7,741 bases of DNA from a virus. Lineage: Duplodnaviria > Heunggongvirae > Uroviricota > Caudoviricetes. The notes under the pieces are model-generated. The model ran no database searches and was not told where the DNA came from. It was given only the letters and a program-made list of their open reading frames with translations. Of the stretch, positions 203 through 634 are shown piece after piece (position 1 is the stretch's first letter; each line of letters starts with the position of its first letter). The position numbers and the translations under genes were made by a program. The DNA lies in the IMG/VR virus record IMGVR_UViG_2534681836_000018, positions 1 through 7,741 of that record; one strand, given 5' to 3'.

Positions 203-474
203 GTAGCCTTTTTTAATATCGTATTTTGTTCCTCCAGACGGCGAACTTGCTTTTCCAGCTCGCGGATACGTTGCTGGTCTGGAGTAATGGGTGTGGCAGA
301 GGGCGTAATACCCTGGCGCTCTCGCCTGAGCTGGCGTACCCAGCTCTCAAGCGTGGTTGAACCGACATTCATCGCTTCACTGGCCTGTCGATATGAGTAG
401 CCCTTATCAACAATCAGCTGTGCACATTCCAGCCTGAACTCAGGGGTGAAGGTTCGTTTGGTTTTCTTGTTCAT
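203..474 (-). CDS. IS3-family transposase OrfA (HTH regulator), 3' end interrupted by IS30
   Basis: From ATG at 474-472: [91 protein letters not shown], with the same architecture as IS911 OrfA. The frame then reads through IS30 IR sequence to a stop at 97 (track ORF 97..510). The track start at 510 is a GTG inside the IR region, so I prefer the ATG at 474. Confidence 0.7.
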
Positions 475-546
475 TAAGTCACCTGTTTTGTGTTGTGGTG
501 AGAATATCACCTTTCATCAGGTGGCCAAATTTAGTGTGCCACTACA
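203..546 (-). mobile_element. IS3-family (IS911-like) element, left inverted repeat plus most of orfA, interrupted by IS30
   Basis: The - strand terminus at 546 reads TGTAGTGGCACACTAAATTTGGCCACC..., resembling the IS911 left IR pattern (TGAAGTGG...TGGCCACC). OrfA follows about 70 nt in. An A-AAA-AAG slippery heptamer typical of IS3-family orfA/orfB frameshifting sits at 214-208 on the - strand. Exact family member not determined. Confidence 0.7.
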
Positions 547-627
547 GGCTATGAGTATCGTCGTGATGACGATATGGCGTTATGGAGTTCTGCTGATTTG
601 ACTTATTCCATTACATACGAGATGTGA
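547..627 (+). pseudogene. U: Tail terminator protein gpU, C-terminal 26-codon remnant truncated by IS insertion
   Basis: Translation [26 protein letters not shown]-stop matches the lambda gpU C-terminus (...[25 protein letters not shown]). Similarity is lost exactly at the IS end (546/547), with an in-frame stop just upstream. Position directly before V is as in lambda. Confidence 0.75.
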
Positions 628-634
628 GGACGAT

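What the first reader, a model, noticed from the sequence alone, without database searches (positions are those of the whole stretch)
203..632. IS3-family insertion truncates gene U, uncoupling an intact tail module from the head genes and late promoter
Similarity to gpU begins exactly at the IS terminus (546/547), leaving only the last 26 codons of U. The IS is on the - strand, so it cannot supply outward transcription into V. Yet V through J retain intact frames, the frameshift site and coupled starts, which suggests the insertion is recent or the module is maintained. Without gpU the tail cannot be terminated and joined to heads, so this prophage is likely defective.
Basis: partly seen in the sequence, partly recalled or inferred. 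Interest (0 to 1): 0.45.

Follow-up and report, generated by a model that had tools for sequence, protein, structure and literature searches.

The report
Nested IS insertion splitting prophage gene U
A jumping gene, later hit by a second one, has split the tail-terminator gene U of an otherwise complete lambda-like prophage in a pathogenic E. coli lineage; this is an ordinary, recent lesion already marked as a pseudogene in public genomes.

Summary
Window 203-546 is the left 344 nt of a 1258-bp IS3-family element (92.7% identical to ISEc31) on the minus strand. Window 1-202 is the left end of an IS30 that landed inside that element. Window 547-627 is the last 26 codons of lambda-type gene U.

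Nine closed E. coli genomes carry the identical junction. In the five I inspected, the first 106 codons of U lie directly beyond the IS in four, flanked by a 3-bp GGC duplication. In three of these (DEC9B, 7_33_46A, OkiPb01717) the Q gene (frameshifted in OkiPb01717), the lysis genes and all head genes lie upstream. So U is interrupted, not truncated with loss of the head module. Only one derivative, EPSSH018, has really lost the late and head region.

Flanking DNA is 0-1 substitutions from intact-U alleles, so intact V-J frames reflect recency, not demonstrated selection. Co-resident prophages carry intact U (90% identical), so trans-complementation is plausible.

The window is a whole 7.7-kb draft contig. 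From about 2584-2658 onward its H-J segment matches a different co-resident prophage. That is either real recombination or an assembly chimera. Low interest; already annotated.

The parts
1..202 (-). Left (IRL) end of IS30, with the first 46 codons of its transposase (ATG at 140, reading down). The contig ends inside the element.
   Evidence: 100% identical to the 1221-bp IS30 of DEC9B and 7_33_46A, annotated 'IS30-like element IS30 family transposase'. HTH_38 hit.
203..204 (.). GT, one copy of the 2-bp target duplication made by IS30 inside the IS3-family element.
   Evidence: The uninterrupted IS reads ...GCGCGGTAGCC.... With IS30 it reads ...GCGCGGT|IS30|GTAGCC.
203..546 (-). Left 344 nt of a 1258-bp IS3-family element (ISEc31-like): IRL at about 520-546, orfA ATG at 474, and the A6G frameshift heptamer at 208-214.
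   Evidence: 100% identical to intact copies. HTH_Tnp_1 E 7.8e-13. 92.7% identical to RefSeq-named ISEc31; imperfect terminal repeats TGTAGTGG...CCACTACA; A6G motif.
547..549 (+). GGC, the right copy of the 3-bp target duplication of the IS3-family element (Gly106 of U).
   Evidence: Left junction ...CAGGGC|TGTAGTGG and right junction CCACTACA|GGCTATG in L001 and L002.
547..627 (+). 3' remnant of tail-terminator gene U: 26 codons plus the TGA stop.
   Evidence: PF06141 positions 107-130, E 8.8e-9. Joining it to the upstream 5' fragment restores a 131-aa U that matches lambda gpU (PDB 1z1z) at E 3e-73. RefSeq annotates it as 'gpU ... missing N-terminus'.
626..637 (+). GAGGA ribosome-binding site and the ATG of V, overlapping the U stop.
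   Evidence: Read directly from the sequence.
635..1387 (+). V, the major tail tube protein (250 aa), intact.
   Evidence: Phage_TTP_12 and Big_2 hits. 100% identical to the prophage P1 copy in closed genomes.
1401..2272 (+). G (1401-1832) and the T frame (to 2272), with the G GGA AAG slippery site at 1809-1815.
   Evidence: Phage_TAC_2 and Phage_tail_T hits. Sequence read.
2253..4826 (+). H, the tape measure protein (857 aa). It is chimeric: prophage P1 type up to 2583, P2 type from 2659.
   Evidence: TMP_2 and Tape_meas_lam_C hits. Informative-site analysis. This exact protein occurs on only one contig.
2584..2658 (.). Interval of the switch from the U::IS prophage type (P1) to the type of a co-resident prophage (P2/P3). 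A smaller P2-like patch lies at 2159-2277.
4823..7177 (+). M (4823-5152), L (5152-5850), K (5856-6599) and I (6596-7177), all intact and of P2 type.
   Evidence: Pfam hits. 99.7% identical to the cif prophage of DEC9B, 7_33_46A and F2_407_2_2, against about 83% to P1.
7416..7741 (+). 5' end of J (tail tip), cut by the contig end.

Best explanation
The window shows two successive, nested transposition events in the tail-terminator gene U of an otherwise complete lambdoid, effector-carrying prophage. In closed relatives this prophage carries nleA and nleG and is integrated at yfaT near gyrA.

First, a 1258-bp ISEc31-like IS3-family element inserted after codon 106 of U and duplicated GGC. Later an IS30 inserted into that element 4 nt downstream of its A6G frameshift site and duplicated GT. 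This destroyed the OrfAB transposase of the first element.

The result is a 2481-bp composite insertion. It leaves a 5' U fragment (106 native residues plus 12 IS-encoded residues) and a 26-codon 3' remnant. The prophage can therefore no longer make its own tail terminator.

The head genes, Q, the lysis genes and V-J stay on one strand in one late operon. V-J are probably still transcribed after induction by Q-modified polymerase reading through the IS (inferred). Without gpU in cis, tails would not be capped or joined to heads unless gpU is supplied by one of the co-resident lambdoid prophages (inferred).

The intact frames of V-J are explained by the youth of the lesion.
For: Junctions and target duplications were read directly. 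Element sizes are 1258, 1221 and 2481 bp. Removing the insert and one GGC restores a 131-aa U. It matches PF06141 at E 3.7e-61 and lambda gpU at E 3e-73. Exactly this sequence is found on at least 1000 contigs.

The DEC9B prophage is annotated intact from int to nleA, except for U and one unrelated transposase pseudogene between nleG and nleA. The identical junction occurs in 9 of 5426 closed genomes. The 118-aa truncated product occurs on 175 contigs. Carriers differ by 0-1 substitutions over window 203-2158. Intact-U prophages are 100% identical over 547-1400.

No promoter-like site lies between the IS and V. There is only one weak terminator-like site on the sense strand inside the insert. 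Loss of gpU gives polytails and no virions (PMC11784142). All 131 residues of gpU form one five-strand sheet with two helices (PMC10721106). Q-modified polymerase gives uninterrupted late transcription (PMC12360218).

Intact U genes, 90% identical, are present in two other prophages of DEC9B and in at least one other prophage (L003) of 7_33_46A. Complementation and recombination within such prophage pools have been shown for O157 (PMC2669165).
Against: The window stops inside IS30, so for the source genome itself the upstream part is not seen. One relative, EPSSH018, has deleted it. Read-through transcription, non-function of the 118-aa fragment and trans-complementation are all inferred, not tested. 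The linkage of H-J to this U::IS in the source strain is uncertain, because the contig may be an assembly chimera.
Confidence: 0.9

Rival explanations
1. One reading: the IS marks a breakpoint at which the tail module V-J has been physically and transcriptionally cut off from the 5' part of U, the head genes and the late promoter. This would leave an orphan tail module.
For: The window ends in IS30, so the upstream context of the source genome is not seen. In EPSSH018 exactly this has happened: ninG' - IS3-family element - IS30 fragment - IS3 fragment - U' - V.
Against: DEC9B and 7_33_46A have 5' U, Z, FII, the head genes and Q directly upstream. So do six other draft contigs, as far as each extends. 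The sibling draft AIGL, which has the same IS30 and the same H type as the window, has E, FI, FII, Z and 5' U upstream. A clean 3-bp duplication shows a simple insertion.
Confidence: 0.06
2. The tail module is kept intact by selection after the loss of U, for example as a donor of tail parts to co-resident prophages or as a domesticated particle. On this view its intactness is not simply due to youth.
For: V-J are intact in all inspected carriers. The U::IS allele is spread over human, bovine, swine and cat isolates from several continents. Tail segments have been exchanged in some carriers.
Against: There are only 0-1 substitutions per about 2 kb since the insertion, so purifying selection cannot be tested. 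Some carriers show further decay of late genes: Q frameshift and Z stop in OkiPb01717, split Z in BGBG01, and deletion in EPSSH018. Polytails made without gpU have no known use.
Confidence: 0.07
3. The contig is an assembly chimera: only 1 to about 2583 belongs to the U::IS prophage, and about 2659-7741 belongs to a different co-resident prophage (the cif/nleH type). If so, the 'intact H-J behind a broken U' seen in this window is not a real linkage. This does not conflict with the main explanation.
For: Window 1-2158 is 100% prophage P1, and 2659-7741 is 99.7% P2/P3 against about 83% P1. That H-J type is at least 99% identical in only 3 of 5426 genomes, and these are three of the four genomes that hold the U::IS::IS30 arrangement, where it sits in another prophage. 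All 9 closed carriers and 6 other drafts have the 853-aa P1 H behind the junction. The window's H occurs on a single contig. P2 and P3 are a two-copy near-identical repeat.
Against: A second draft (AIGL, a 285-kb contig) shows the same switch interval. Natural mosaics with a nearby switch exist in closed genomes (E2865). A real gene-conversion patch in V exists in closed carriers. A few sites (5610, 5619, 5855, 6835, 6847) match neither P1, P2 nor P3 of DEC9B.
Confidence: 0.45
4. The U remnant is a duplicated fragment, and an intact U exists in the same prophage.
For: None found.
Against: In closed carriers the only U sequences in this prophage are the 318-nt 5' piece and the 81-nt 3' piece. 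They flank the IS and share the GGC duplication.
Confidence: 0.01

Closest known systems
IS-disrupted morphogenetic genes in the defective lambdoid prophage pool of EHEC/EPEC (O157 Sakai Sp prophages; Asadulghani et al. 2009, PMC2669165)
   Same: It is a lambdoid, effector-carrying prophage. One structural gene is inactivated by an insertion sequence. Several near-identical co-resident prophages could supply the missing protein or recombine with it.
   Different: The gene and the elements are specific to this case: U hit by an ISEc31-like IS3-family element, itself hit by IS30. No induction, packaging or transfer data exist for this prophage.
Phage lambda gpU tail terminator (PF06141; PDB 1z1z, 3fz2)
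   Same: The reconstructed gene encodes 131 aa with a full-length match (E 3e-73), 112/131 identical, and sits between Z and V.
   Different: Here the gene is split after codon 106, and only the last 26 codons lie in the window.
ISEc31 and IS911-type elements of the IS3 family
   Same: It is 1258 bp with TG...CA imperfect terminal repeats and a 3-bp target duplication. It has orfA with HTH_Tnp_1, an A6G -1 frameshift site and an rve-domain orfB.
   Different: It is only 92.7% identical in DNA to the copy RefSeq names ISEc31, so it is probably a distinct isoform. I could not assign its ISfinder name. This copy is inactivated by IS30.
IS30
   Same: It is 1221 bp with a 2-bp target duplication and a single 383-aa transposase with HTH_38 and rve domains.
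   Different: Nothing unusual. In EPSSH018 the same site carries a rearranged IS30 end with an adjacent deletion.

Membership tests
Lambda gpU tail terminator (Pfam PF06141) | Sequence match above the Pfam gathering score | tested here: met
   The 26-aa remnant scores 36.2 bits against a cut-off of 25. The reconstructed 131-aa protein scores 205.6 bits. Lambda gpU in the PDB matches at E 3e-73.
Lambda gpU tail terminator (Pfam PF06141) | Complete open reading frame of about 131 aa able to form the five-strand sheet/two-helix fold | tested here: not met
   Only codons 106-131 lie in the window. In relatives the gene is split after codon 106 by 2481 bp. The fold description comes from PMC10721106.
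Lambda gpU tail terminator (Pfam PF06141) | Position between Z and V in a lambda-type tail operon | tested here: met
   V starts 8 nt after the U stop. Z precedes 5' U in the closed relatives.
IS3 family | Length 1.2-1.55 kb with imperfect terminal inverted repeats ending 5'-TG...CA-3' | tested here: met
   1258 bp. The ends are TGTAGTGG... and ...CCACTACA; 20 of the outermost 26 positions match.
IS3 family | 3-bp (3-5 bp) direct target duplication | tested here: met
   GGC on both sides in L001 and L002. Only the right copy lies in the window.
IS3 family | orfA and orfB joined by a programmed -1 frameshift at an A6G motif | tested here: met
   AAAAAAG at IS positions 333-339, which is window 208-214 on the minus strand. 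RefSeq annotates 'programmed frameshift' in the intact copy.
IS3 family | DDE transposase (rve domain) in orfB | tested here: met
   rve, rve_3 and HTH_21 hits in intact copies at the same site (L015, L016). This part lies outside the window.
IS30 family | About 1.2 kb, a single transposase ORF with N-terminal HTH and an rve domain, and a 2-bp target duplication | tested here: met
   1221 bp. A 383-aa ORF with HTH_38 and rve. GT duplication.
Lambda-type tail assembly module | Gene order V-G/T-H-M-L-K-I-J with the G-T slippery site | tested here: met
   Pfam hits in that order. GGGAAAG at 1809-1815.
   All are present in DEC9B and 7_33_46A. 5' U, Z, FII and the downstream head genes are present in the sibling draft AIGL as far as that contig extends. 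The exception is EPSSH018. The source genome itself is not visible beyond IS30.

The most novel reading that the evidence does not exclude
The switch at 2584-2658 is real. After U had been killed by the nested IS, the H-J half of the tail module was replaced by homologous recombination with a co-resident prophage, or the two prophages exchanged arms by a chromosomal rearrangement. This would show that a structurally dead prophage still takes part in tail and host-range module shuffling, with the nested IS serving as a dated marker that orders the events.
Probability: 0.4. Interest if true: 0.3.

Novelty: already known. Interest (0 to 1): 0.12.

Why it matters
It matters little beyond annotation. 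The finding documents how one nleA/nleG effector prophage of the DEC9 lineage of E. coli became dependent on its neighbours for a tail terminator. It also gives a clean, dateable marker: IS3-family insertion first, then IS30, then further decay or deletion in sub-lineages. Practically, it is a caution that short draft contigs from genomes with many lambdoid prophages can join segments of different prophages. Statements about an 'intact module behind a lesion' therefore need a closed genome.

Tried and rejected
- I looked for an outward promoter from the IS end into V. None was found.
- I looked for strong terminators on the sense strand inside the composite IS. Only one weak consensus match turned up.
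- dN/dS of V-T against carriers and intact alleles was abandoned. There are 0-1 substitutions, so the test has no power.
- I tried to identify the source strain of WGS prefix AIGM from the literature. There was no hit, and the DEC collection paper is not held. From memory the prefix belongs to the DEC collection; this is unverified.
- I tried to follow the 285-kb sibling contig AIGL downstream of H to see which chromosomal flank it reaches. Look-ups with the window's K, L and I proteins returned only other genomes because these proteins are common.
- An Rfam scan found only isrC over the orfA 5' region.
- I considered that DEC5B shares the insertion. It does not: there, ISEc31 sits in V.

Full report
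WHAT IS IN THE WINDOW

The 7741-nt window is an entire draft contig, AIGM01000009.1 of assembly GCA_000249935.2. It has three parts at its left end.
- Window 1-202 is the left end of IS30 on the minus strand. The transposase ATG is at 140, and the sequence is 100% identical to the 1221-bp IS30 in closed genomes.
- Window 203-546 is the left 344 nt of an IS3-family element on the minus strand. It holds the IRL, an orfA with HTH_Tnp_1 (E 7.8e-13), and the A6G frameshift heptamer at 208-214.
- Window 547-624 encodes [26 protein letters not shown], with the stop at 625-627. These are the last 26 codons of a lambda-type U. On their own they match Pfam Phage_tail_U positions 107-130 at E 8.8e-9, above the gathering score.

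V starts at 635 behind its own GAGGA site. Downstream lie G, the GGGAAAG slippery site at 1809-1815, T, H, M, L, K, I and the start of J. All are open, with overlapping or adjacent starts.

WHAT LIES BEYOND THE WINDOW

Nine of 5426 complete E. coli genomes carry a 100% identical 140-nt IS/U' junction.
- Four of them (DEC9B, 7_33_46A, F2_407_2_2, Z1323PEC0008) also carry the IS30. They are identical to window 1-1400 at 99.9-100%.
- Four have the IS3-family element without IS30 (OkiPb01717, AUSMDU00014361, CAU16175, PEC240).
- One (EPSSH018) is a rearranged derivative.

I inspected the upstream side in five of the nine. In DEC9B, 7_33_46A, OkiPb01717 and CAU16175 the first 106 codons of U lie immediately on the other side of the insertion. 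The junctions read ...CAGGGC|TGTAGTGG... and ...CCACTACA|GGCTATG..., giving a 3-bp GGC target duplication. IS30 is flanked by a 2-bp GT duplication inside the IS3-family element, 4 nt downstream of its A6G motif.

The intact IS3-family element is 1258 bp, IS30 is 1221 bp, and the composite is 2481 bp. Removing the composite and one GGC restores a 131-aa U. It matches Pfam PF06141 over its full length (E 3.7e-61) and lambda gpU (PDB 1z1z) at E 3e-73. Exactly this protein occurs on at least 1000 contigs in the large collection. The 118-aa truncated product (106 U residues plus CSGQVILATVLQ) occurs on 175 contigs.

THE PROPHAGE

In DEC9B the element is a roughly 50-kb lambdoid prophage integrated in the yfaT region near gyrA. 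Its annotated genes run as follows:
- int, xis, exo/bet/gam, kil, cIII, repressor, cro, cII, O, P, ren and the nin genes;
- Q, then holin, lysozyme and Rz;
- terminase, W, portal, protease, D, E, FI, FII and Z;
- U::(IS3::IS30);
- V through J, lom, tail fibre genes, nleG and nleA.

Everything except U, and one unrelated transposase pseudogene between nleG and nleA, is annotated as intact. So the lesion is a simple interruption of U inside an intact late operon. It is not a truncation that separates the tail module from the head genes and the late promoter.

Neither IS end faces V with a promoter-like site. The sense strand of the insert has only one weak terminator-like match. Q-loaded polymerase stays antiterminating throughout the late operon (PMC12360218). 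I therefore infer, without a test, that V-J are still transcribed on induction.

There, a ninG fragment, another IS3-family element and a 407-nt inverted IS30 end abut the same GT site, and the whole Q-lysis-head-5'U region is gone. For the window's own genome the upstream side cannot be seen. However, the sibling draft AIGL01000043.1 is identical to the window over 1-2158. It differs at only 9 of 4104 positions, eight of them the P2-like patch at 2159-2277 described below. It has E, FI, FII, Z and 5' U upstream of the same IS3::IS30.

CONSEQUENCE

gpU caps the tail tube and provides the head-joining surface. Lambda U mutants make heads plus endless polytails (PMC11784142). All 131 residues belong to one five-strand sheet with two helices (PMC10721106). 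A product lacking the last 25 residues is therefore most likely non-functional (inference).

The same genomes, however, hold other lambdoid prophages with intact U:
- a cif/nleH/espJ prophage, which I call P2 (seen in DEC9B and 7_33_46A);
- an nleG-cluster prophage, P3 (seen in DEC9B), which itself lacks I and has a truncated J.

P2's U is 118/131 identical to the reconstructed U. FII is 96% identical, V 93% and Z 84%. Complementation of morphogenetic defects, and recombination between co-resident lambdoid prophages, has been shown experimentally for O157 Sakai (PMC2669165). 'Defective alone, possibly mobilisable in its native host' is therefore the fairest statement.

RECENT OR MAINTAINED?

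Among twelve carriers of the junction, window 203-2158 shows 0-1 substitutions. The exception is a clustered 23-site patch in V in CAU16175 and EPSSH018, which is a conversion tract. Intact-U prophages are 100% identical to 547-1400. The lesion is therefore young on the mutational clock, and this alone explains the open frames. dN/dS has no power here.

Some carriers already show further damage elsewhere in the late region:
- OkiPb01717 has a frameshifted Q and an internal stop in Z.
- BGBG01 has a split Z.
- CAU16175 has a stop in the IS transposase.
- EPSSH018 has the deletion described above.

The window is a mosaic.
- Positions 1-2158 are 100% identical to the U::IS prophage (P1) of DEC9B and 7_33_46A.
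- Eight sites at 2159-2277 are P2-like.
- Positions 2345-2583 are P1-like.
- From 2659 to the end the sequence is 99.7% identical to P2/P3, while P1 is only about 83% identical there.

This H-J type reaches at least 99% identity in only three of 5426 genomes. These are three of the four that hold U::IS3::IS30, and there it sits in the other prophage. All nine closed carriers and six other drafts have the 853-aa P1-type H behind the junction. The window's 857-aa H occurs on a single contig in the whole collection. P2 and P3 form a two-copy, near-identical 6-kb repeat with one difference. All of this points towards an assembly mis-join.

Against that, the sibling draft AIGL shows the same switch interval (2584-2658) in a 285-kb contig. 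A closed genome, E2865, contains a natural P1/P2-type mosaic switching at 2679-2753. I cannot decide between a real recombinant and an assembly chimera without the reads. I put the chimera at about 0.45. Either way the conclusion about U is unaffected. P1's own V-J are also annotated intact in the closed genomes.

COMPARISON WITH WHAT IS KNOWN, AND VERDICT

The IS meets every defining feature of the IS3 family that I could test: length, TG...CA repeats, 3-bp duplication, A6G frameshift, and an rve-domain orfB in intact copies. It is 92.7% identical to the element RefSeq names ISEc31, and it is common and active in E. coli: 938 records hold copies at 99% identity or more. IS30 is canonical.

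IS insertions in and near U and V recur in this phage group. ISEc31 sits in V in DEC5B, and IS66-family elements lie next to a truncated U in E2865 and in another genome. RefSeq already annotates the two U pieces and the two IS fragments as pseudogenes in the closed genomes.

This is a correct observation of an ordinary, already annotated kind of lesion. Its stronger interpretive claim, uncoupling from the head genes and the late promoter, is not supported by the nearest relatives.

Noticed in passing
window 2159-2277 and 2584-2658 onward: The contig switches from the U::IS prophage type to the type of a different co-resident prophage (cif/nleH) inside gene H, with a small extra patch in T. 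This is either real inter-prophage recombination or a draft-assembly chimera.
   Followed up: partly
window 356-478 (- strand): Rfam RF01387 isrC (Hfq-binding sRNA) matches at 150 bits. The match covers the 5' leader and start of the IS3-family orfA, so this Rfam family appears to describe an IS-derived transcript.
   Followed up: no
window 7178-7415: There is a 238-nt non-coding spacer between I and J, with a GC-rich hairpin near 7186-7222. Many related prophages carry a sodC (Sod_Cu) gene on the opposite strand at this spot, and the P1 type has only about 60 nt there.
   Followed up: no
L009 (EPSSH018) 2221-4451: At the same GT target in the IS3 fragment, the IS30 end is the opposite inverted repeat. 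Only 407 nt of IS30 remain, cut by another IS3-family element, and the region from ninG' to 5' U is deleted. This is an IS-mediated inversion/deletion derivative of the window's arrangement.
   Followed up: partly
L047 (E2865) 952-1278; L039 5102-5470; L007 (DEC5B) 3089-5102: There are independent IS hits in the same gene neighbourhood of related prophages. IS66-family elements abut an N-terminally truncated U, and ISEc31 sits inside V with a 3-bp AAG duplication.
   Followed up: partly
L008/L009, window-equivalent 754-1084: A clustered 23-site patch in V in CAU16175 and EPSSH018 stands against otherwise identical flanks. It is a gene-conversion tract acquired after the IS insertion.
   Followed up: partly
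L022 (DEC9B 2196319-2217062): A third lambdoid prophage in DEC9B has a U-K segment that differs from the cif prophage by a single base. It lacks I and has a J truncated to 561 aa, so it is defective in another way.
   Followed up: no
window 97-474 (- strand): Because IS30 landed 4 nt 3' of the A6G frameshift site, orfA now reads on into IS30 sequence and gives a 125-aa fusion ORF. The first IS can no longer make OrfAB.
   Followed up: partly
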